Source of the DNA: Escherichia phage SusanneMuster_Bas79
Length of the DNA: 46,874 bases
Direction: 5' to 3' (one strand)
Sequence record: PQ850629.1
Shown here one piece after another: positions 1,254 to 24,502 of this stretch. The translations under genes were made by a program, and so were the position numbers. The number at the start of each line of letters is the position of its first letter. The stretch's first letter is position 1. The notes under the pieces were generated by a model. It was not told the DNA's origin, searched no databases, and worked only from the letters and a program-made list of their open reading frames with translations.

Positions 1254-2678
1254 ATGGCTCGTAAACGACTCTCCGCGCTGGCAATCGAAAAACTTGAACA
1301 GGTAGTTGGCAACTCAACTGCAAAGCCTGAATCAGCAGTTTTTGGGCTTGTAGATAAGTTACTTCAGGATGGTTCTCCCAGTGTCGTAAAGCGACTTAAG
1401 ATGACAGCCACTGGGGTATCTGAAACTGATGAAGAGCCAACAATATTAATTCCTGAGCGGATGGAGCTTATCCTTTACCCACGGCGCTTTAAGGTGTTTT
1501 ATGGTGGTAGGGGCAGTTCCAAGAGCCGAACGTGTATATCCTACCTTATCGAAAAGGCAAGGTTCCGCAACAGTCGCGTTGGTTGTTTTCGTGAGATACA
1601 GAACTCAATCAAAGAATCAAGCTATGCAGAGCTGGTCGATGAGATAAACAGGAAGGGGCACGCTCAGGAATATCGTTGCGTTGATGGTGAGATAACGCAC
1701 CACTCAACGAGATCAAAGTTTGTTTTCCGTGGACTGTGGCGAAATATAACCGCCATCAAGGGTATGGCTGGTCTGACTGATGTATTCTGCGAAGAGTCTG
1801 AAAACATCAGTCAGGTGTCATGGGATACGCTGATTCCAACAGTTCGCGCCGCTGGCTCTGAAATTATTATTGTTTTTAACCCAAATAAAGAGACAGACCC
1901 GACGTGGACTAACTTTGTTGAGCCTTACATCGACAAGATGGTTGATGGCATATATCAGGATGATGACATAGTTGTTGTTAATGTTAACTACGTCCACAAC
2001 CCGTGGTTCACGGAAGAACTTAAACAGCATATGAACCAGATGAAGGCGGTGGATTATGACCGCTATCTGTGGGTGTATGAAGGATTATTCAACAAGCGGT
2101 CTGAGGAAGCTGTGCTTGGCGGGAAATGGCAAACGCTGGACTTCGAGCCATCTCCCGAATGGGGAGGGCCATATTATGGCATTGACTTTGGTTTTTCTCA
2201 GGATGCAACCGCAGCAACAGAATCATATGTAGAAGATTTGGGAGATGGGCGCAGAAATCTATATATCTATCGTGACTTTGCAAAGGTTGGCCTTGAGATA
2301 ACTGACACGCCAGAAGCGATGCGCTCAGCATTCCCAAATTCAGAGAAGTACAGGTGGTATGGGGATTGCGCAAGGCCTGAAACAATAAGCCATATACGAC
2401 GATCTGGATTCGATATTCATCCGTGCGCAAAATGGCCGGGTAGCATTGAGGACGGGATTACGTGGCTGCGTGGGTGTGACAGAATTTACGTACACTCAAG
2501 ATGTAAGCACGTCATTGAAGAGATGACAATGTACAGCTACAAGGTGGATAAATTAACAGGAAACATACTCCCTGACATAGTTGATAAGTACAATCACGCG
2601 ATTGATAGCCTACGCTATGGCCTTGGTGACCACATCGTTCAGCGCGGTAGCGGAATGCTAATCCGGCGCAGGCGATAA
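1254..2678 (+). CDS. terminase large subunit
   Basis: 474 aa; Walker A-like FYGGRGSSKSRT near N-terminus; size and position typical of TerL. Confidence 0.9.
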   Translation: MARKRLSALAIEKLEQVVGNSTAKPESAVFGLVDKLLQDGSPSVVKRLKMTATGVSETDEEPTILIPERMELILYPRRFKVFYGGRGSSKSRTCISYLIEKARFRNSRVGCFREIQNSIKESSYAELVDEINRKGHAQEYRCVDGEITHHSTRSKFVFRGLWRNITAIKGMAGLTDVFCEESENISQVSWDTLIPTVRAAGSEIIIVFNPNKETDPTWTNFVEPYIDKMVDGIYQDDDIVVVNVNYVHNPWFTEELKQHMNQMKAVDYDRYLWVYEGLFNKRSEEAVLGGKWQTLDFEPSPEWGGPYYGIDFGFSQDATAATESYVEDLGDGRRNLYIYRDFAKVGLEITDTPEAMRSAFPNSEKYRWYGDCARPETISHIRRSGFDIHPCAKWPGSIEDGITWLRGCDRIYVHSRCKHVIEEMTMYSYKVDKLTGNILPDIVDKYNHAIDSLRYGLGDHIVQRGSGMLIRRRR

Positions 2679-2694
2679 ATCCGCATAACCACAC

Positions 2695-2734
2695 TTGACC
2701 AATCTACACCGAGCGCATAGTATAATCTACATCA
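2695..2734 (+). promoter_or_regulatory. promoter with two conserved boxes
   Basis: TTGACC (2695-2700), box AATCTACACC (2701-2710), TATAAT (2721-2726) overlapping second box AATCTACATCA (2724-2734). Confidence 0.4.
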
Positions 2735-2754
2735 TGCTTACCGGAGATATTACT

Positions 2755-2961
2755 ATGCGCAGCTATGCAGGATTCACACAGGAGGAAAAAGAGCAGGTTT
2801 ATTCACTGGCGCGCGCTGGTGTGCCTGATGAGGTGATTTGCCGTCGGTATGACATCGACGAGGATTTTCTGCTGCGCGTTCTGGATGATGTCTTCGTTAA
2901 CCTGCAAGAGAGGCGCGGGTACAAGGGTATCTGCTGCAAGAATGATTTTTTGAGAGGGTAA
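2755..2961 (+). CDS. hypothetical protein (68 aa)
   Basis: ORF in frame with ATG at 2755 preceded by GGAGA; unusual position between terminase and portal. Confidence 0.4.
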   Translation: MRSYAGFTQEEKEQVYSLARAGVPDEVICRRYDIDEDFLLRVLDDVFVNLQERRGYKGICCKNDFLRG

Positions 2962-2962
2962 T

Positions 2963-3370
2963 GTGTTTAATAATAAATTAAAGAAAAGAATCCGTGACGC
3001 TGCGGATAAGAAATACACCAAAAAGATTGACATATCATTCATCGACGGTGCTGGATTGTACAATCACGCCTGCCACCTGAATGCAGTGAACCGTGCGCGG
3101 GATGGTAGCTCGTGCGCAGTGGTTGAGGTGGTTATAATTAATGATGATGGCGCAACAGCTCATTACATCAATATGCAGTCGGACGGTTCTTATGTTGATT
3201 ACACGCTCGGCTGGCACTGGTCTGGCGCTGATTACCGATTTGTGCGATTTGTTCCGTTTACTGAATGGTCGGATATTACAGGCTCGTTAAGCAGACTGAA
3301 GGCCGGGCTGTGCAGGTCAGTGGCTAAATGGCAGAAGTTGTTGATGATAACTGATGGTGAACTTTGCTGA
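2963..3370 (+). CDS. hypothetical protein (135 aa)
   Basis: ORF abutting the upstream gene; no recognisable motif. Confidence 0.45.
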   Translation: MFNNKLKKRIRDAADKKYTKKIDISFIDGAGLYNHACHLNAVNRARDGSSCAVVEVVIINDDGATAHYINMQSDGSYVDYTLGWHWSGADYRFVRFVPFTEWSDITGSLSRLKAGLCRSVAKWQKLLMITDGELC

Positions 3371-3379
3371 GGTGATGTG

Positions 3380-3553
3380 ATGAAAATCGAAGGTGATTAC
3401 GGGCAGTATATTATGATTGATAAGGATTTTGAATACGGAAGCGATCTACTAGTTGTCAGGCAGACAGGTGATGTAATAGTTGTTGCAATTGAGCAAGCAG
3501 AGCAACTAATCGAAGTCCTGCAACGCTGGGTTAATGGTGAGGAGATTGAGTGA
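3380..3553 (+). CDS. hypothetical small protein (57 aa)
   Basis: ATG at 3380, stop at 3551-3553 overlapping next start; below the 60-aa ORF track cutoff, translated by hand. Confidence 0.3.
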   Translation: MKIEGDYGQYIMIDKDFEYGSDLLVVRQTGDVIVVAIEQAEQLIEVLQRWVNGEEIE

Positions 3554-3738
3554 TGAGCGTTTATTTTATTCATGCTGAAGTGCTTGGTGGTGGCGATATT
3601 GTTACCAAGGTTTGCGCGATAGCTACGACATCAAACGCCAATGAAGCGTTTGATTGGTTTTTAGGTCAGGAATTGGTTGCAAAATACGAAATAAAAGGCT
3701 ACGACGTCATCATTGATAAACTTGAAAAGGTGGAGTGA
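3550..3738 (+). CDS. hypothetical protein (about 61 aa; ATG at 3553 likely the true start)
   Basis: ORF track entry; stop/start overlap with neighbours. Confidence 0.4.
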   Translation: MMSVYFIHAEVLGGGDIVTKVCAIATTSNANEAFDWFLGQELVAKYEIKGYDVIIDKLEKVE

Positions 3739-3938
3739 TGGATAGAAAACATCTTCACGAAATGGCGGTCGAACTTAGAAAAAACTTTGAGAGCATCTGG
3801 TTTGATAGTCATGATAAATTCAATAAGCAGTATCAGGTTTACGCAAAATGCAGAGGGTTAGTGATTGGTGATAGAATGGAAAATGCCGTACTCCATCATA
3901 GCAACGCCACTATGCACAGGCGAGCATTCGACTACTGA
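3735..3938 (+). CDS. hypothetical protein (67 aa)
   Basis: ORF with overlapping start; followed by hairpin terminator. Confidence 0.4.
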   Translation: MMDRKHLHEMAVELRKNFESIWFDSHDKFNKQYQVYAKCRGLVIGDRMENAVLHHSNATMHRRAFDY

Positions 3939-3950
3939 TACCATGCTATA

Positions 3951-3980
3951 ATCCCATCCAACGTGATGGGATTTTTTATT
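3951..3980 (+). terminator. rho-independent terminator
   Basis: stem ATCCCATC / GATGGGAT with 6-nt loop followed by TTTTTATT. Confidence 0.55.
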
Positions 3981-3988
3981 GGTGACAT

Positions 3989-5401
3989 ATGTCAAAAATT
4001 GATGCATTAAACGCCTATATACGCGACCGCGTGGCGAACAATAACCGGGCGCTTCAGCAGCAGCGGCTTTGTGCTGGCGGGAAGAATCTGGACCAGAAAC
4101 GTGAGTTCATGTGGAAGGAACTGGGCTACCCGCAGGAAATAACCGCCGAGATGTTCCGCTATGCATACGAGCGACATCCAGCCGCCGCCGCTGGCATTAA
4201 CCGCATTATTAATAAATGCTGGCAGAAATATCCTGAAGTGGTCGAAGATGGCGAGGATGATAAGAACTCAACGCCGTGGGAGTTGTCCATCAACGATATG
4301 ATGAAGCGTGCCTATCCGTTCATCAAAGAGGCCGACAAGCGCAACGCCATCAACAGATACTCCGCTGTTATCCTGCAAATCCGCGATGGTCGCCAGTGGA
4401 GTGAGCCGGTAGACATCACCAAAACCCGCCGCATTAAAGATAAATCCATTGTTCGCTTTATCCCAGTATGGGAAGAGCAACTCCGCGTCAGCGCATGGAA
4501 TAACGATGAAACAAGTGAAGACTACGGCATGCCTGAGATGTACGAATATCAGGAAAGCGCCGTAGAGGATTTCGATAGCGACGGCAAGCCTGAGCGTTCC
4601 GTGCAGATTCATCCTGATCGCATTATCATTCTGGCAGAGGGTAGCTTCGATGGCAGTATGTTCAGTGGCATCCCGATGCTACGTGCTGGCTACAACAGCC
4701 TTATCGACATGGCTAAGGTTTCCGGTAGTTCAGCAGAAGGCTTCCTGAAGAATGCCAGCCGTCAACTGGCTGTTAACTACACGAAGGACAACGTAACGCC
4801 AGCAAGCCTTGCACAGTCAATGGGTGTATCTCAGGATGAGCTTATTGACATCATGAATGACAATATCGAGATGCTGAATTCTGGCATTGACGCTGCACTA
4901 TTTAGCATGGGCGCCGAGACTCAGGTGTTATCCGTAACGCCAGCTGACCCGAAACCAACATGGGAAGTGGCTGCCAACCAGTTCGCTGCATCAATGGCGC
5001 TTCCGTTCACCGTCATTTTCGGGCAGCAAACCGGACGCCTTGCGAGTGATGAAGACAAGATGCAGGAGGCGATGACTGCCAAGCAGCGCCGAGAAACATG
5101 GGTGGATTATGTTATCTCAATGTTCGTTGAGCGCATGATTCAGTTCGGCATCGTCGATAAAGCACCGGAAAATGGCTACAAGGTTAAGTGGGACGACCTG
5201 CTTGCTCCATCAGAGCTGGATAAGGCGGAGTTGCTGTCTAAGCTCGCCACTGCGAACAAGTCGTTCTTTGATGCTGGTCAATCTGCGTTGCTTACCGTCG
5301 ATGAGGCTCGCGGCATGGTTGGTATGGAGCCGATTGAACTTGATGAAAGTTATCGCGAAGACACGCCACCGGAAGATGAAAATGAAGATACTCCGGTTTA
5401 A
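3989..5401 (+). CDS. portal protein
   Basis: 470 aa; position between packaging genes and Mu-F-like head morphogenesis gene; acidic C-terminus; assignment mainly by synteny and size. Confidence 0.65.
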
Positions 5402-21250: not shown

Positions 21251-21714
21251 TGCCAGCGAAATTAAGAGGCATTCAGGAGGCAATTCGCAAAACTGAGCAG
21301 ATAGCTGGCACTATCACGGCAGAAAAAGCGGTGAGAGCAATCAAAAGTGCCAACTATATTATTCGCACAGAAGCGGCAACAATAACGCCAATTGATACAT
21401 CAAACCTTATCAATAGCCAATATGATACGGTGGAAGTGTCAGGGACGAGGATAACAGGAAAAATAGGATATTCTGCTGATTATGCTCTATATGTTCACCG
21501 CGCACCGGGGACACTAAAAGGAAAGCCACGCGCTCATTTTGGCAAGACCAATAACCTTTCAGATTTTGGCCCGAAACAGGTTAAGGAATTTGGTGGCGGC
21601 TCGCTGACAGGTAACTACTGGGACCCAAATGCCGAGCCACAATTCCTGACCAAGGCGGCGCAGCGCACAAAAGACCTGGTTGATAGTGTGATTAAGAAGG
21701 AGATGAAACTGTGA
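21250..21714 (+). CDS. neck / head-closure protein (by position)
   Basis: 154 aa, overlapping starts and stops. Confidence 0.4.
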   Translation: MPAKLRGIQEAIRKTEQIAGTITAEKAVRAIKSANYIIRTEAATITPIDTSNLINSQYDTVEVSGTRITGKIGYSADYALYVHRAPGTLKGKPRAHFGKTNNLSDFGPKQVKEFGGGSLTGNYWDPNAEPQFLTKAAQRTKDLVDSVIKKEMKL

Positions 21715-22085
21715 ACATGCTTGAGCTGGTTGATGCATATCTTCAGGATGCAGGATTGTATGATGGCTGGACTTCGCAGTTGCAGTTCTGGAACGACACC
21801 GGAGATGGCAACGAGCAATTTATTGTTCTGCAATCCAATGGTGGCACGCAGGTGATGGACGGCCTCGGCGGTGACTTCTATTTCTCGCTGTACGTTGTTG
21901 GGAAACAAGGCCAGTACAATGTTGCTGATGTCGACGCTAAAGCCAATGAGATTATCGAATACATCAAGACACATCCGATTGATTCATGCGTGAACTACAT
22001 CCAGTTGCAGGCTCCTCTCGGACGACCAATGTTGACGGAGGAGAAGCGCCCTGTGCATGAGTTGCTTTTGCGGGTTGTGAAATAA
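21711..22085 (+). CDS. tail completion / tail terminator protein (by position)
   Basis: 124 aa, followed by hairpin. Confidence 0.4.
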   Translation: MNMLELVDAYLQDAGLYDGWTSQLQFWNDTGDGNEQFIVLQSNGGTQVMDGLGGDFYFSLYVVGKQGQYNVADVDAKANEIIEYIKTHPIDSCVNYIQLQAPLGRPMLTEEKRPVHELLLRVVK

Positions 22086-22086
22086 A

Positions 22087-22112
22087 TAAAGCCGCACGAA
22101 GCGGCCTTATTG
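22087..22112 (+). terminator. weak hairpin terminator
   Basis: stem GCCGC / GCGGC with ACGAA loop followed by CTTATT. Confidence 0.4.
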
Positions 22113-22119
22113 CTGGTTT

Positions 22120-22830
22120 AAGCATTGCCAGCATGCTTTCTTAATATCCAGCCCCGTAACCCATACATACCCCTACATATGATTGCGATAATGCTGGATA
22201 TTAAGTGTTGTGGTGGCCGGTGCTGATATCCGGCATAAGGCGCTTATTCGGCGGCGTCGAGCTTGCTTATTCGCTTGAGCCATCCTCGTGAGTCAGCCAC
22301 GTCCCACTGCGCATCAGCCTGCGCATTCACCACAACGGAAATAGCACTGGATAACCAAGCGCGCAGACTCTTCACGATTATCTGCTCAATGCTCTTACCT
22401 GTTGTGTGCCACGTTTCGTGTGGCTTACGGCAACGACATTACCGGGTTATTCGCTGCACCCTTGAGGGATTTACTAAGGCGACATGCCCGTTGTTACCCA
22501 CGAATGAGAGTACTGTCTTCGAGCAGACTTTGCCGCGCAAGAACGACGATCAATCACAATACCCTCATTTGTGGGTGCCCATTATTAATCACAGCGGGCC
22601 ACTGCGCCGAATTTGCTTACAAGGAATCGGAAGACCTTGCTGACTTACAGGCTATTACGCCGCCATCAGAACAACATCATCGTTTGCATTTATCTTTGTG
22701 GTCAGTTTCTAAAAAGTCCGCAAAGTCGCTTACGAAAACCATCTGAAATACAATCTACACCACAAAATAATCACTGTCAACACCTGTGATATAATCACCA
22801 CGTTAGCAGCTAACACAATTCGGAGATCGA
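22120..22830. other. ORF-free, inverted-repeat-rich region of about 0.7 kb upstream of major tail gene
   Basis: no plausible ORF on either strand; perfect 12-bp inverted repeat TTAATATCCAGC / GCTGGATATTAA (22141-22152 / 22192-22203); long-range inverted repeat CCCACGAATGAG / CTCATTTGTGGG (about 22497-22510 / 22563-22575); promoter elements at 22751-22796. Confidence 0.5.
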
Positions 22831-22831
22831 A

Positions 22832-23548
22832 ATGGCTATTTGTGCAAATGATAAAGGCGTTCTGGTCGGTCGCATGACCAGACTGTTCCTTGCTGAAGGG
22901 TGCGGAGACGCAGTTCCGGAGGCGGGAGACTGGAAGTATTTAGGCTCAACCACCAGTAAGGGTGTTGACTACTCGCCGCAGACTACCACGTCGGAGGCAG
23001 ATACCACTGGCGGTTTTGTTTCCACTCTCGTTACCAGCTCTGATATGACCATCAGCGCAGAGGTGGAAATCCGCAAGAATGACCCGAGCGATGAGTTTGG
23101 CTTCCATCGTCTGGTTGAGATTTACGCCACCGAACTGAAAGCTCGTCGCCAGCCTTCCTTGTGGGTGCGTCAGGTGACTGGTGCGACTATCGTTACGGCG
23201 TATTGCAACATCACCAGCATCAGCTACGAAGGTGGTACGAACGATATCGTTACTGGCAGCCTTGAGTTCAAGGTTTACGATTCTGATAGCGTTACCGTCG
23301 AAAGCCTTGAGCCTCTGGCATTCACTACAGACCTGCCATCAACTGGCACGGCTGGCAACCCGTTAACTGTTGCTGTTGAAGGTGGTGTCGCTCCTTACAC
23401 TTATGTATGGCGCAAAGATGGCGTGGTTGTCGGCAGCGAATCAGGCGCGTCTCTGGCAAGCCCTACCGCTGGCGTGTATACCGTCACGGTGACTGATTCG
23501 TCTACTGACCCTGAAATTATTATCAGCACGGCTTGCACTGTGTCCTGA
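22832..23548 (+). CDS. major tail protein with C-terminal Ig-like domain
   Basis: 238 aa; Thr/Ser/Val-rich C-terminal segment (TVAVEGGVAPYTYVWRKDG...YTVTVTD) typical of Ig-like decoration domains; followed by strong terminator. Confidence 0.7.
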   Translation: MAICANDKGVLVGRMTRLFLAEGCGDAVPEAGDWKYLGSTTSKGVDYSPQTTTSEADTTGGFVSTLVTSSDMTISAEVEIRKNDPSDEFGFHRLVEIYATELKARRQPSLWVRQVTGATIVTAYCNITSISYEGGTNDIVTGSLEFKVYDSDSVTVESLEPLAFTTDLPSTGTAGNPLTVAVEGGVAPYTYVWRKDGVVVGSESGASLASPTAGVYTVTVTDSSTDPEIIISTACTVS

Positions 23549-23551
23549 TAA

Positions 23552-23582
23552 ATAAAAAAGCCCCGGAAGGGGCTTGTTTTAT
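23552..23582. terminator. bidirectional rho-independent terminator
   Basis: AATAAAAAAGCCCCGGAAGGGGCTTGTTTTATT. Confidence 0.6.
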
Positions 23583-23845
23583 TCTTGCGGTGGCTCTGGT
23601 AGTGGCATCCAGTGGGTGGCATCACTAATCCAGCCATATTCATTAGTTTGAGGGTGATTACCGCGCCCATCTCCGTATTTAAAACTCTCCATAAAGCCAT
23701 AATGTTTATCACCATTAATGTTCACAAAACCGTAATAAGCAGGAATAACGCCGATCTCACACGTAACCAGTAAGGGAAAACTAGTTCTCCAGTTTAGCTC
23801 GCCAATTACAGGCATCCTCTCACTGCACTTAATCCACTGGATCAT
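23579..23845 (-). CDS. DUF551-like protein
   Basis: 88 aa; N-terminal WIKCSERMP and C-terminal THWMPLPEPP resemble DUF551 hallmarks. Confidence 0.6.
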   Translation of the reverse strand: MIQWIKCSERMPVIGELNWRTSFPLLVTCEIGVIPAYYGFVNINGDKHYGFMESFKYGDGRGNHPQTNEYGWISDATHWMPLPEPPQE

Positions 23846-23985
23846 ATCACCTTATCCTCATCAAAAATCACACCAATCACACGAAGCAAGTCTTTCGCCA
23901 TGCGTTCAGCTTCTTCATAGTCGTAACCCGCATCGACATACAAATCGGTGTAGAAAATCAGGTCGGATTTTGTTTGTTCGTTCAT
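23842..23985 (-). CDS. hypothetical small acidic protein (47 aa)
   Basis: hand-translated MNEQTKSDLIFYTDLYVDAGYDYEEAERMAKDLL...; 4-nt overlaps on both sides. Confidence 0.3.
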   Translation of the reverse strand: MNEQTKSDLIFYTDLYVDAGYDYEEAERMAKDLLRVIGVIFDEDKVI

Positions 23986-24188
23986 TTTTTATCGTCGCTC
24001 TTAACTAATGCCCAAACAAGCGCGGCGACCCAGCCAATAAAACTCCATCCAACGAGAATATTCAGTACGCAGATTGCAGTCGTGTTTACGTGCTTGCGTT
24101 GCAGAGCCACAAAAGATGGCAGGAGGTACGCAAATATCACCAACCCAACAAAAAACAACAAAATAACGACGTCCATAGCTAACCTCAA
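23982..24188 (-). CDS. superinfection-immunity-type small membrane protein
   Basis: 68 aa; YLLPSFVALQRKHVNTTAICVLNILVGWSFIGWVAALVWAL matches the pattern of the small Imm-type superinfection immunity membrane protein family. Confidence 0.7.
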   Translation of the reverse strand: MRLAMDVVILLFFVGLVIFAYLLPSFVALQRKHVNTTAICVLNILVGWSFIGWVAALVWALVKSDDKK

Positions 24189-24208
24189 CTGTTAATAACT
24201 TGTTTATA

Positions 24209-24502
24209 TTACATGCCATTCTTTTCACACAAAGCAACAGCCACATCACGCAATTGCTCTTTAGTCATATCCTTGCGTGCATAAACCATTTCTACGATAG
24301 CAAGGCCGATTATTTCTGCTGATTCGTTGTTTTTTGCAGAACCTTTTACCACCACTTCCGCAAGATTCTTGCTGATACCGTTATCGCGAACATCAGCAGT
24401 GTTCATGGCGATTTCTCCAATGTTTTTGCACATATCGGAAGTCGCACTGGCGGCAAAAGAAGAAGCCAATAGTACAGATGCAATCAACATTTTAATTTTC
24501 AT
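24209..24502 (-). CDS. secreted small protein (signal peptide), function unknown
   Basis: 97 aa; N-terminal MKIKMLIASVLLASSFAASA resembles a Sec signal peptide; two Cys. Confidence 0.5.
   Translation of the reverse strand: MKIKMLIASVLLASSFAASATSDMCKNIGEIAMNTADVRDNGISKNLAEVVVKGSAKNNESAEIIGLAIVEMVYARKDMTKEQLRDVAVALCEKNGM

What the first reader, a model, noticed from the sequence alone, without database searches (positions are those of the whole stretch)
22120..22830. 0.7 kb ORF-free, inverted-repeat-rich region between neck genes and the major tail gene
In a genome otherwise packed with overlapping ORFs this stretch has no credible coding frame on either strand (the two tracked + ORFs overlap each other, are Cys/Arg-rich and lack ribosome-binding context). 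It contains a perfect 12-bp inverted repeat separated by 39 nt (22141-22152 / 22192-22203), a long-range 12-bp inverted repeat pair with one mismatch (about 22497-22510 / 22563-22575) and several shorter palindromes. Candidates are a structured non-coding RNA, a long regulatory leader for the highly expressed tail gene, a packaging or recombination site, or the decayed remnant of a mobile gene.
Basis: seen in the sequence. Interest (0 to 1): 0.55.

Follow-up and report, generated by a model that had tools for sequence, protein, structure and literature searches.

The report
Hidden phage RNA operon targeting tmRNA
The "empty" 0.7 kb between the neck and tail genes is a cluster of structured RNA genes read from the opposite strand, and one of them looks built to pair with the host's ribosome-rescue RNA (tmRNA) and replace its protein-tagging message with a phage-encoded one.

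Summary
The gap 22086-22831 has no credible protein gene, and the two flagged inverted repeats are real.

The transcript is an array of mobile RNA modules, each found separately in hundreds of unrelated enterobacterial phages, prophages and P1-like phage-plasmids. None is annotated or in Rfam.

Module B1 (22741-22577) carries a tmRNA-style message: AUA at -6 to -4, resume codon GCA, the 10-codon tag ANDDVVLMAA, stop codons inside a helix, then two covarying pseudoknots. It has no tRNA-like domain. Instead its 5' arm is an antisense copy of host E. coli tmRNA nt ~56-107, which includes the resume codon and tag codons 1-6. B1's own message differs at exactly those positions.

Module M3 (22336-22207) is a new, very widespread tRNA-shaped motif with a 7-bp and a 5-bp stem and kissing loops.

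Best reading, inferred rather than shown: B1 docks on host tmRNA, masks its tag template and supplies a phage tag. Expression and tagging are untested. The phage is a BASEL E. coli K-12 phage, so the experiments are straightforward.

The parts
22752..22780 (-). Sigma-70-type promoter of the RNA operon: TTGACA (22780-22775), 17-nt spacer, TAGATT (22757-22752). The expected start is near 22745.
   Evidence: Best promoter-like site in the scan, 10/12 matches. The same promoter is conserved in Skatevirus relatives even where the downstream RNA content differs (L001; L034/L054/L058/L075/L108).
22698..22741 (-). B1 5' arm, antisense to host E. coli tmRNA nt ~56-107. Blocks: GUUUUCGU (22739-22732) against tag codons ACGAAAAC; AGCGAC (22730-22725) against GUCGC (resume codon); UUUGCGG (22724-22718) against CCGCAAA; CUUUUUA (22716-22710) against UAAAAAG.
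   Evidence: RNAduplex -42.5 kcal/mol. 0/300 dinucleotide shuffles reach it (mean -27.2, sd 2.7). Lambdoid and P1-type copies align to the reverse complement of ssrA nt 68-106 with scores of 27-36 against 16 +/- 2 for shuffles, 0/500. GTTTTCGT is invariant in 24 diverse copies. The block is present in 107 of 114 copies.
22652..22694 (-). tmRNA-like message: GAUAAAU linker (A-U-A at -6 to -4), resume codon GCA (22687-22685), tag A-N-D-D-V-V-L-M-A-A (22687-22658), then UAA UAG (22657-22652).
   Evidence: Sub-threshold Rfam hits to tmRNA_permuted (28.5 bits) and beta_tmRNA (17.2 bits) align exactly on the tag. The frame is 10 codons plus a stop in every copy except one protein-gene false positive (L073), with synonymous variants. 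It is also 10 codons in the Sashavirus (ANEERFLMAA) and the P1-like plasmid (ANDDLMMVAA). There is no in-frame AUG/GUG/UUG upstream; an in-frame UAG lies 8 codons upstream (sequence).
22640..22669 (-). P5-like helix CUGA/UCAG that encloses the end of the tag and the stop codons.
   Evidence: Helix 2: 98.9% of cells paired. One pair switches A-U (11 sequences) / G-C (12).
22607..22639 (-). Pseudoknot a. S1 is CAAGG (22639-22635) / CCUUG (22624-22620). S2 is CCGA (22630-22627) / UCGG (22610-22607).
   Evidence: S1 has 3 of 5 pairs with changes on both sides (CG/UA, GC/AU/UA, AU/GC). S2 has 2 pairs with compensatory changes. The P1-like copy uses CGGGG/CCCCG and GUCG/CGAC.
22577..22604 (-). Pseudoknot b. 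S1 is CAG (22604-22602) / CUG (22594-22592). S2 is GCCC (22599-22596) / GGGC (22580-22577).
   Evidence: S1 has C-G/G-C swaps in 7 sequences. S2 is nearly invariant in the main family but is CCCCG/CGGGG in the P1-like copy.
22497..22575 (-). Long hairpin with 19-nt arms (22575-22557 pairs with 22515-22497) and a 41-nt tip.
   Evidence: 18/19 pairs on minus-strand RNA, including 2 G-U. The E. coli prophage copy L004 forms the equivalent helix with a different sequence (alignment).
22405..22496 (-). Conserved module X2, of unknown role. It includes the hairpin GCCAC-ACGAAAC-GUGGC (22424-22408).
   Evidence: 19 homologues at 74-99% identity. The hairpin switches GCCAC/GUGGC to GCUCC/GGAGC, and the stem GCAGCG/CGUUGC switches to GCGACG/CGUCGC, GCUGG/CCAGC or GUCAG/CUGAC.
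22331..22406 (-). Long hairpin 'IRa/IRb': CACAACAGGUAAGAGCAUUG (22406-22387) pairs with CAGUGCUAUUUCCGUUGUG (22349-22331), with a variable tip. It is a recurring boundary element of these arrays and a possible RNase III-type processing stem (inferred).
   Evidence: 44 elements give 28 distinct strand pairs, 15-21 bp, tips of 28-190 nt. There are blocks of compensatory change, such as AGCA/UGCU to CUGC/GCAG, UUGC/GCAA, or a fully different helix in L023.
22207..22336 (-). M3, a tRNA-shaped domain. P1 is a 7-bp closing helix, UGUGGUG (22334-22328) / CACCACA (22215-22209). Then comes an AAU linker. P2 is GCGCA-GGCUGA-UGCGC (22324-22309). P3 is variable. P4 is GCCGG-AUAUCAGCA-CCGGC (22234-22216) and abuts the P1 3' strand directly. 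The P2 loop (GCUGA) pairs with the P4 loop (UCAGC).
   Evidence: (36 sequences): 94.9% of cells paired against 26-49% when the partners are slid. 11 pairs change on both sides. 0/500 shuffles reach the covariation score. All 7 pairs counted as the outer segment of P1 show compensatory change. The loop-loop pairs switch together (GCUGA/UCAGC to GUCGA/UCGAC). The motif hits at least 120 viral contigs, and 108 of 157 copies have no tag domain upstream.
22140..22205 (-). Terminal hairpin: a 13-bp perfect stem (22205-22193 / 22152-22140) with a 40-nt G-rich loop.
   Evidence: In L001 the stem is UUAACAUCCAGC/GCUGGAUGUUAA, a U-A to C-G compensatory change.
22080..22105 (.). Bidirectional intrinsic terminator: GCCGC-loop-GCGGC with U-runs on both strands. 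It ends the neck operon on + and the RNA operon on -.
   Evidence: Terminator scan. The terminator parts of several Rfam leader and sRNA models align here on both strands. Conserved in L001.

Best explanation
The gap is a minus-strand operon of structured non-coding RNAs, about 650 nt long. It runs from the promoter at 22780-22752 to the terminator at ~22105-22080. It is assembled from mobile modules that circulate among enterobacterial phages, prophages and phage-plasmids.

The key module, B1, is descended from the coding piece of a two-piece tmRNA. Its tRNA-like half has been replaced by a ~45-nt arm complementary to the host's own tmRNA.

Proposed mechanism, in five steps:
1. B1 is transcribed and probably trimmed out of the array at the long hairpins and the tRNA-shaped M3 domain. 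This step is inferred.
2. Its arm pairs with host tmRNA from the 3' half of PK1 through the linker, the resume codon and tag codons 1-6. The complementarity is shown; pairing in the cell is inferred.
3. This masks the host tag template.
4. B1's own linker, resume codon and tag lie just 3' of the duplex and are not complementary to the arm, so they are presented to the ribosome in place of the host message. Alanyl-tmRNA and SmpB from the host rescue the stalled ribosome, but the protein receives a phage-specified tag, (A)ANDDVVLMAA instead of (A)ANDENYALAA. This step is inferred.
5. The consequence for the phage is unknown. It could be altered protease or adaptor targeting of tagged proteins, or keeping ribosome rescue while changing the fate of its products.

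M3 and the other modules are independent tRNA-like or hairpin elements. Their likely roles are processing, stability or tRNA/TLD mimicry.
For: Transcription unit: a promoter and a bidirectional terminator bracket the gap. Both are conserved in relatives whose internal modules differ. G-U pairs exist only on the minus strand.

Not coding.

tmRNA-like message: Rfam tmRNA models align on it. The frame is always 10 codons plus a stop, with synonymous changes, across about 30 nucleotide variants. The P5 helix and two pseudoknots are 95.1% paired, with 9 compensatory pairs and 0/500 shuffles reaching the score. B1 is 75-80% identical to bona fide viral two-piece tmRNA coding pieces through the first pseudoknot.

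No tRNA-like domain: ARAGORN finds nothing in the window or in 14 related loci scanned (L001, L002, L004 and eleven others). Nothing in the window reaches an Rfam gathering score.

Antisense arm: -42.5 kcal/mol against E. coli ssrA nt 56-107, reached by 0/300 dinucleotide shuffles. The arm against B1's own remainder gives only -22.5. The collinear alignment to the reverse complement of ssrA nt 68-106 is about 9 sd above shuffles for the lambdoid and prophage copies and is significant for the P1-like, Pollock and Magnus copies. The arm is the most conserved part of the 5' region.

Mutual exclusivity: 107 of 114 copies of this message carry the arm. The exceptions with a usable message are canonical two-piece tmRNAs that have their own tRNA-like domain.

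Host match: the phage is 99.7% identical to BASEL phage Bas77, isolated on E. coli K-12.
Against: There are no expression, processing or interaction data for this locus.

The window's own arm carries a 5-nt deletion relative to the lambdoid copies, and its simple local alignment is only marginal (7/500 shuffles). The duplex energy is still significant.

In the Sashavirus and Pollock copies a TAGTTT -10-like hexamer overlaps the GUUUUCGU block. Some transcripts may therefore start downstream of it, and part of its conservation could be promoter-related.

A ~40-bp imperfect duplex could be an RNase III substrate. That would favour plain inactivation of tmRNA.

Whether a ribosome can resume on a message held in trans is untested.

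The phage tags still look like degrons (hydrophobic-Ala-Ala), so the benefit is unclear.

Salmonella tmRNA is recalled to differ by one base in the tag block (from memory, not fetched), yet the arm is the same in several other Skatevirus-like copies (L021, L027, L062), whose hosts the collection does not give.
Confidence: 0.5

Rival explanations
1. B1 is purely an inhibitor of host trans-translation. Its antisense arm blocks host tmRNA or triggers its cleavage. The tRNA-shaped M3 may act as a TLD-like decoy for SmpB. The tmRNA-like message is a leftover or a decoy and is never translated.
For: The antisense complementarity is the strongest single fact. A TLD-only RNA in mycobacteriophage DS6A has been suggested to inhibit tmRNA by titrating SmpB (PMC4131195). 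The related phage vB_CECAV_048 has a TLD-like tRNA-like element and no B1 at the same locus.
Against: A bare antisense RNA would be enough. Instead about 130 nt of message, P5 helix and two pseudoknots are kept under covariation. The tag keeps exactly 10 codons, a stop and synonymous substitutions. The message has diverged from the host precisely where it would otherwise pair with its own arm.
Confidence: 0.25
2. The locus encodes a self-contained multi-piece phage tmRNA. M3 is released by RNase P, trimmed and given CCA, and serves as the chargeable tRNA-like domain. B1 is its coding piece.
For: M3 has tRNA geometry: a 7-bp stem, a 5-bp stem abutting it, a 2-3 nt linker and a D-arm-like hairpin. 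In L001 the same slot holds an element with canonical D and T loops and a weak tmRNA-TLD hit. Two-piece tmRNAs exist in other viral contigs.
Against: No CCA is encoded consistently after P1. There is no G3-U70 alanine identity pair; position 3:70 is U-A or G-C. No conserved complementarity between B1 and M3 was seen by eye; the middle region P3 differs among tag-linked copies (alignment). B1 occurs without M3 in Pollock-type phages, and two thirds of M3 copies have no B1. This model leaves the antisense arm unexplained.
Confidence: 0.1
3. The region is non-functional debris of tRNA and tmRNA genes and repeats that hitch-hikes in a recombination hot spot.
For: The content is mosaic and differs between close relatives. 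The thermodynamic z-scores of a 181-nt piece are unremarkable on both strands.
Against: There are many compensatory changes in at least eight helices. The tag frame is conserved. The modules are 80-95% identical across unrelated virus families (Skatevirus, Schitoviridae, Ackermannviridae, lambdoid, P1-like). A promoter and terminator are conserved around them.
Confidence: 0.05
4. One reading: a + strand regulatory leader for the major tail gene, or a DNA site for packaging or recombination.
For: The region sits directly upstream of a highly expressed gene. A TGnTATAAT-like element lies at ~22787-22795 on the + strand (sequence).
Against: Only the last ~80 nt (query 667-746) travel with the tail gene in relatives. 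The modules occur far from any tail gene in other phages. The G-U pairs and the tag frame are specific to the minus strand.
Confidence: 0.03

Closest known systems
Coding RNA of two-piece (circularly permuted) tmRNA, as in alpha- and betaproteobacteria and some marine phages. Viral examples here: L032 and L090 (ARAGORN 'tmRNA*').
   Same: The start of the message is identical (GAUAAAU|GCAAACGAUGA). Both have a 10-codon AND..AA tag and a stop codon inside a helix. The first downstream pseudoknot is homologous, with 75-80% identity. In both cases the message and the tRNA-like part would sit on separate RNAs held together by base pairing.
   Different: B1 has no acceptor 5' strand, no D-loop and no P2 pairing to a cognate acceptor piece. 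In their place is an arm antisense to the message region of the host's one-piece tmRNA. The partner would therefore be a complete host tmRNA whose own message is masked. B1 also has a second pseudoknot.
Phage-encoded tmRNAs: cluster C mycobacteriophages such as Bxz1, Bacillus phage G, and the TLD-only RNA of phage DS6A (Hudson and Williams 2014, PMC4131195).
   Same: These are phage genes that act on trans-translation.
   Different: Those are complete tmRNAs or a tRNA-like domain alone, and standard tmRNA finders detect them. That exhaustive search found none in enterobacterial phages. B1 is the converse: a message without a tRNA-like domain.
Trans-acting antisense and 'anti-sRNA' RNAs of prophages, such as AgvB and AsxR of Stx phages. 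Also the Pas sRNAs and STnc100, which are encoded in the same Q-to-holin region (Pearl Mizrahi 2021; Zhu, Shabalina and Storz 2026 preprint).
   Same: They are mobile-element RNAs that pair with a host RNA, sit in the same genomic niche in lambdoid prophages, and are cut from longer transcripts.
   Different: No reported target is tmRNA. None carries a tmRNA-like message. STnc100 (RF02076) does not hit the window and gives only a sub-threshold hit on another module in a P1-like plasmid.
tRNA-like structures used as processing or stability elements or as mimics, such as mascRNA downstream of MALAT1, plant-virus TLS, bacterial YrlA, and the stable RNAs in the phage T4 tRNA cluster. All of these are recalled from memory and were not tested here.
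   Same: M3 has the 7+5 bp coaxial stem geometry of the tRNA acceptor/T arm and a contact between a D-like and a T-like loop. It is often co-transcribed with tRNAs.
   Different: The D/T contact is a 5-6 bp Watson-Crick kissing interaction. There is no anticodon arm, no conserved CCA, and no Rfam tRNA-clan hit.

Membership tests
tmRNA (RF00023 and the permuted/two-piece families) | A tRNA-like domain: acceptor stem closed by the 5' and 3' ends, a G3-U70 pair and a CCA end. | tested here: not met
   ARAGORN finds no tmRNA or tRNA in the window or in B1-bearing loci. The sequence upstream of the GUUUUCGU block is not conserved between subfamilies. M3's P1 has U-A or G-C at position 3:70 and no conserved CCA.
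tmRNA (RF00023 and the permuted/two-piece families) | A T arm with a canonical 7-nt T loop next to the acceptor 3' strand. | tested here: not met
   B1 has none. M3's P4 is a 5-bp stem next to P1, but it has a 9-nt loop AGAUCAGCA that kisses the P2 loop.
tmRNA (RF00023 and the permuted/two-piece families) | An mRNA-like domain: an unstructured A/U-rich linker with U-A at -5/-4, a resume codon with no start codon, and a short ORF ending in a hydrophobic residue, Ala-Ala and a stop. | tested here: met
   GAUAAAU|GCA, tag ANDDVVLMAA, then UAA UAG. The frame is 10 codons in every family copy examined.
tmRNA (RF00023 and the permuted/two-piece families) | Stop codon inside helix P5, followed by pseudoknots. 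| tested here: met
   The P5-like helix and two H-type pseudoknots show compensatory changes.
tmRNA (RF00023 and the permuted/two-piece families) | Reaches the Rfam gathering score. | tested here: not met
   tmRNA_permuted scores 28.5 against 47. beta_tmRNA scores 17.2 against 84. Nothing in the window reaches a gathering score.
Trans-acting antisense RNA | Extended complementarity to a defined target RNA, beyond chance and conserved. | tested here: met
   The arm pairs with E. coli ssrA nt 56-107. The arm blocks are invariant or nearly so and present in 107 of 114 copies.
Trans-acting antisense RNA | Demonstrated pairing and an effect on the target in vivo. | not testable with these tools
   This needs RIL-seq, CLASH, EMSA or genetics.
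tRNA | A cloverleaf with an anticodon arm, detected by tRNA finders. | tested here: not met
   ARAGORN finds none. There is no Rfam tRNA hit at E<=10 in 22050-22850. M3 keeps only the acceptor/T-like geometry.
STnc100 / PasD prophage sRNAs | A match to RF02076. | tested here: not met
   There is no hit in the window at E<=10. A sub-threshold hit (38 against 47 bits) falls on a different module of a P1-like plasmid.
Protein-coding gene or recent pseudogene | A conserved reading frame or homologues. | tested here: not met
   There are no PHROG matches for the two long + strand ORFs. The frame is broken between genomes that are 99.7% identical. Relatives differ by indels.

The most novel reading that the evidence does not exclude
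B1 is a parasitic 'message cassette' for the host's ribosome-rescue system. It would be an inter-genomic two-piece tmRNA, in which a phage RNA docks by antisense pairing on alanyl-tmRNA-SmpB, silences the host tag template and makes rescued ribosomes add a phage-chosen peptide tag. Hundreds of enterobacterial phages, prophages and P1-like plasmids would then reprogram protein quality control in this way. The co-transcribed tRNA-shaped M3 motif would be a second new class of tRNA/TLD mimic.
Probability: 0.4. Interest if true: 0.95.

Novelty: categorically new. Interest (0 to 1): 0.88.

Why it matters
Trans-translation is the main ribosome-rescue and protein-tagging pathway of bacteria and a drug target. 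Phages are known to depend on it, and a few encode whole tmRNAs. No RNA is known that re-templates or specifically pairs with host tmRNA.

If the reading is right, it would show three things:
- the tmRNA message can be supplied in trans;
- phages edit the degradation tag that the host puts on stalled products;
- a large set of 'empty' intergenic regions is functional. That set comprises at least 403 phage records, 656 of 5426 complete E. coli genomes and about 600 plasmids.

Even if only the structural findings hold, the work defines two unannotated, widely mobile RNA families, B1 and M3. It also corrects spurious ORF calls in deposited genomes.

The phage is essentially BASEL phage Bas77 on E. 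coli K-12, so the key experiments are simple.

Tried and rejected
- ARAGORN on the window and 14 related loci found no tRNA or tmRNA in B1 or M3.
- Rfam at gathering and at permissive thresholds gave only sub-threshold tmRNA hits on the tag.
- Single-sequence folding of 22570-22750 on either strand gave z-scores of +0.4 and +1.05. This is uninformative because pseudoknots are not modelled.
- I looked for a tRNA-like partner in several ways. (a) An acceptor stem between the 5' GCGACU and the 3' GGCCAC fits only the L004-type copies and clashes with two covarying helices, so I rejected it. (b) The CCACCA at 22211-22216 as a free 3' end was rejected because CACCA is the 3' strand of P1, which covaries. 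(c) NCCA after P1 is enriched (~19%) but not general. (d) A complementary partner for the arm elsewhere in the window gave nothing beyond chance.
- I first read GGUUUUCGU as a tmRNA D-loop homologue. I abandoned that when the whole arm aligned to the reverse complement of ssrA at about 9 sd above shuffles.
- A hairpin 'helix A' (GGUUUU/GAAACU) in B1 showed no covariation, so I do not claim it.
- The remainder of the transcript against ssrA gave only chance-level 7-9-mers.
- T-loop-bearing tips of the long hairpins in some relatives (L104, L030, L017) could be read as TLD-like pieces. This is unresolved.
- Nine literature searches, covering phage tmRNA, the tag peptides, the exact sequences, antisense to tmRNA and STnc100/Pas, found no description of these elements.
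- Pas sRNA sequences could not be obtained for comparison.
Full report
**Where we are.** The window is a small siphovirus 99.7% identical across this region to Escherichia phage ClaudiaMuster_Bas77. Bas77 is a Skatevirus of the BASEL collection, isolated on E. coli K-12 with restored O16 antigen. The finding covers the gap between a neck-region ORF (21711-22085, PHROG 782) and the major tail gene (22832-23548, PHROG 853).

**Checking the observation.**
- The gap has + strand ORFs of 126, 114 and 58 aa. The two long ones have no PHROG match.
- The 160-aa ORF annotated in Bas77 is split by a 1-nt indel in this window.
- Relatives differ by further indels.
- The first inverted repeat is a perfect 13 bp (22140-22152 / 22193-22205). 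Dinucleotide shuffles give 7-11 bp at most.
- The second has 19-nt arms (22497-22515 / 22557-22575). It gives 18/19 pairs if read as minus-strand RNA, because two mismatches become G-U.

**The gap is a mosaic of mobile modules.** Megablast of the 746 nt hits 403 phage records, but only two cover it fully. Different sub-segments are shared at 80-98% identity with unrelated viruses:
- Schitoviridae (Pollock, PE007);
- Ackermannviridae (Magnus, Vi01-like);
- Sashavirus;
- Erwinia and Pseudomonas phages.

In those records the matched stretch is almost always unannotated. The same sequences occur in 656-855 of 5426 complete E. coli genomes and in about 600 mostly non-mobilizable ~95-kb plasmids. 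In a P22-like prophage the element lies between the Q antiterminator and holin and is co-oriented with the late genes. In Pollock it lies beside a tRNA cluster. In a P1-like plasmid it lies after the dam gene, in an island with three tRNAs.

**Strand and transcription unit.** On the minus strand there is a TTGACA-17-TAGATT promoter (22780-22752, the best site). At the far end is a GC hairpin with U-runs on both strands (22091-22105). Promoter, terminator and the 13-bp terminal hairpin are conserved in Salmonella phage vB_CECAV_048 even though the modules between them differ. There the hairpin stem carries a compensatory U-A to C-G change.

**Module B1 (22741-22577) has a tmRNA message without a tRNA-like domain.** The only Rfam signals are sub-threshold hits of tmRNA_permuted (28.5 bits) and beta_tmRNA (17.2 bits). 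They align on AUAAAU-GCA AAC GAU GAU GUU GUU CUG AUG GCG GCG-UAA UAG, which encodes the tag ANDDVVLMAA.

A pattern scan recovered 117 viral contigs, giving 115 unique copies. In every copy of the family the frame is exactly 10 codons plus a stop. The tags include ANDDVVLMAA, ANDEQFLAVA, ANDDLMLMAA, ANDDQFLAVA and ANDDLMLAAA. Synonymous variants occur (GCG/GCC/GCU/GCA, CUG/UUG, GAG/GAA, UUC/UUU, GUA/GUG), as do all three stop codons. The Sashavirus copy encodes ANEERFLMAA and the P1-like copy ANDDLMMVAA. There is no in-frame start codon upstream, and an in-frame UAG precedes the linker.

Downstream there is a P5-like helix around the stop codons and two H-type pseudoknots. On 24 diverse sequences the structure is 95.1% paired, against 34-52% when the partners are slid. 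Nine pairs change on both sides, and 0/500 shuffles reach the covariation score. The P1-like copy keeps the architecture with different sequences: CGGGG/CCCCG, GUCG/CGAC, CAGA/UCUG and CCCCG/CGGGG.

ARAGORN finds no tmRNA or tRNA here or in related loci. An exhaustive published search found phage ssrA only in mycobacteriophages and Bacillus phage G (PMC4131195).

**The missing domain is replaced by an antisense arm.** Duplex prediction between the first ~45 nt of B1 and E. coli ssrA (fetched) pairs the arm with ssrA nt 56-107 at -42.5 kcal/mol. The collinear blocks are:
- GUUUUCGU(C) against tag codons (G)ACGAAAAC;
- AGCGAC against GUCGC, which spans the resume codon;
- UUUGCGG against CCGCAAA, the PK1 3' strand and linker;
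- CUUUUUA against UAAAAAG.

Dinucleotide shuffles average -27.2 +/- 2.7 and none of 300 reaches the observed value. Seven of 300 random 363-nt targets did. About four or five are expected to be pieces holding the arm's own complementary strand, since the pool included three B1 loci; this was not checked. The arm against B1's own remainder gives only -22.5.

Local alignment of the arm to the reverse complement of ssrA gives nt 68-106 with these scores:
- prophage and lambdoid copies: 36, against 16 +/- 2 for shuffles, 0/500;
- P1-like and Pollock copies: 27, 0/500;
- Magnus: 27, 1/500;
- the window's own copy, which has a 5-nt deletion: 23, 7/500.

GTTTTCGT is invariant in the 24-sequence alignment.

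B1's own message reads AAU|GCAAACGAUGAUGUU where the host reads GUC|GCAAACGACGAAAAC. It therefore escapes its own arm.

Of 114 copies with enough upstream sequence, 107 have the arm. The exceptions are five canonical two-piece tmRNA coding pieces with a normal acceptor strand and D-loop, one variant arm and one false positive. ARAGORN calls the full permuted gene for two of the five. The sense half of B1 is 75-80% identical to those viral two-piece coding pieces through the first pseudoknot.

The simplest history is a two-piece tmRNA coding RNA whose tRNA-like half was exchanged for an arm against enterobacterial tmRNA.

**Mechanism.** What is shown: the complementarity, its conservation, the coding-type constraint on the tag, the RNA structure and the absence of a cis tRNA-like domain.

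What is inferred: B1 docks on host tmRNA, masks the host template and offers its own resume codon. In the RNAduplex model, which includes a weak CUGACC/GGUUGG stem, that codon lies about 11-12 nt beyond the duplex end. This is similar to the 11-nt distance from PK1 to the resume codon in E. coli. If the arm ends at the last strong block (CUUUUUA), the distance is 22 nt. Host Ala-tmRNA-SmpB would then rescue the ribosome while a phage tag is added.

From what I recall of the literature, the SspB adaptor contacts positions that include Tyr7 of AANDENYALAA and ClpX contacts the C-terminal LAA. I did not verify this here. The phage tags change position 7 (V, F or M) and the end (MAA or AVA). Altered routing of tagged proteins is therefore a plausible pay-off but is not demonstrated.

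The main rival is plain inhibition of trans-translation. I put about 0.4-0.5 on tag substitution, about 0.25 on inhibition only, and more than 0.9 on 'a real minus-strand structured-RNA operon'.

The structure, in order, is a closing helix P1, an AAU linker, P2 (GCGCA-GGCUGA-UGCGC), a variable P3, and P4 (GCCGG-AGAUCAGCA-CCGGC) abutting the 3' strand of P1. The P2 and P4 loops are complementary.

On 36 sequences 94.9% of cells are paired, against 26-49% when slid. Eleven pairs change on both sides, and 0/500 shuffles reach the score. P1 is solid for 7 bp and P4 for 5 bp, which matches the acceptor/T-arm geometry of tRNA. The kissing pairs switch together, from GCUGA/UCAGC to GUCGA/UCGAC. About 45 distinct P1 sequence pairs occur, including a 2-nt compensatory insertion in a Pseudomonas phage.

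There is no anticodon arm, no consistent CCA and no G3-U70. In vB_CECAV_048 the same slot holds an element with canonical D and T loops. It is annotated there as tRNA-Ser and is weakly matched by the tmRNA TLD model.

The function is unknown. A tRNA/TLD mimic or an RNase P-type punctuation and stability element are the leading ideas.

**Other modules.**
- Two long hairpins, 22575-22497 and 22406-22331. The second type has 28 distinct complementary strand pairs among 44 elements. It recurs as a boundary element, sometimes with T-loop-bearing tips.
- A conserved module X2 (22496-22405) with two covarying stems.
- The Skatevirus-specific terminal hairpin.

**Comparison with what is known.** No Rfam family reaches threshold anywhere in the window. 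Nine literature searches, including the tag peptides and exact sequences, found nothing. The Q-to-holin region of lambdoid prophages is known to encode Hfq-dependent sRNAs, namely PasA-D and STnc100. STnc100 gives only a sub-threshold hit on another module in a P1-like plasmid. I could not obtain Pas sequences.

B1 fails the defining tmRNA test because it has no tRNA-like domain, so it is not filed as a tmRNA. It works like the coding piece of a split tmRNA and like an antisense RNA at the same time, and I know of no precedent for that.

Noticed in passing
L032 7185-7490 (-), L090 670-1091 (+); also L016, L037, L084: These viral contigs carry bona fide permuted (two-piece) tmRNA genes or coding pieces, with tags ANDESFALAA, ANDERFILAA and ANDEKFALAA. 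They start the message in the same way as B1 and are probably the ancestors of B1's sense half.
   Followed up: partly
L239 (plasmid pE2865-1, NZ_AP018809.1) 2487-4040: This P1-like phage-plasmid has a ~1.6-kb non-coding island after the dam methyltransferase gene. It holds a B1 variant (tag ANDDLMMVAA), long hairpins, tRNA-Asn/Tyr/Thr, two M3-type domains and a piece that gives a sub-threshold STnc100 hit. About 550 E. coli plasmid records match B1 (554 places); only pE2865-1 was inspected.
   Followed up: partly
L001 (Salmonella phage vB_CECAV_048) 1500-2000: The same promoter, terminator and terminal hairpin as in the window enclose different cargo. There is no B1. The cargo is an unknown ~110-nt 5' segment, the IRa/IRb hairpin and a tRNA-like element with canonical D and T loops, annotated as a 58-nt tRNA-Ser. 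The locus behaves as an exchangeable RNA-cassette site.
   Followed up: partly
L001 ~1830-1880; L002 ~1130-1180; L023, L136: A further short conserved module, GGUCGA(A/G)AGACGCCGGA...CGUAACCGGC, recurs in these arrays. It was not analysed.
   Followed up: no
window 22787-22795 (+): A TGnTATAAT-like extended -10 element sits just upstream of the major tail gene, back-to-back with the minus-strand RNA promoter. This suggests a divergent promoter pair.
   Followed up: no
L240 (Bas77, PQ850598) 1240-1341 and 1378-1860; window 22125-22226 and 22263-22746: The deposited Bas77 genome annotates two hypothetical proteins (33 and 160 aa) on the + strand across the RNA operon. The longer one is frameshifted in this window, so both are probably spurious calls. 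PHROG 26260 (46 aa, unknown function) may be built from similar calls over B1.
   Followed up: partly
L104, L030, L017 (lambdoid prophage-type contigs), tips of the IRa/IRb hairpins: Some hairpin tips contain a T-loop hairpin, GGUA-GA-GGG-UUCGAAU-CCC-UACC, next to a second small hairpin. This resembles a closed tRNA-like or TLD-like piece. ARAGORN does not call them.
   Followed up: partly
window 23579-24502 (-): Several small minus-strand ORFs lie downstream of the tail gene. One is homologous to a gene annotated in relatives as a superinfection immunity protein. This looks like a moron-type insertion in the structural module.
   Followed up: no
Lambdoid loci, e.g. L007, L049, L104: 3' end of M3 to the terminator before holin: PasA of EPEC is described as an 84-nt sRNA cut from a longer transcript, ending at a terminator next to the holin/lysozyme operon. 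This may correspond to the 3' end of these arrays. It was not tested because no sequence was available.
   Followed up: no
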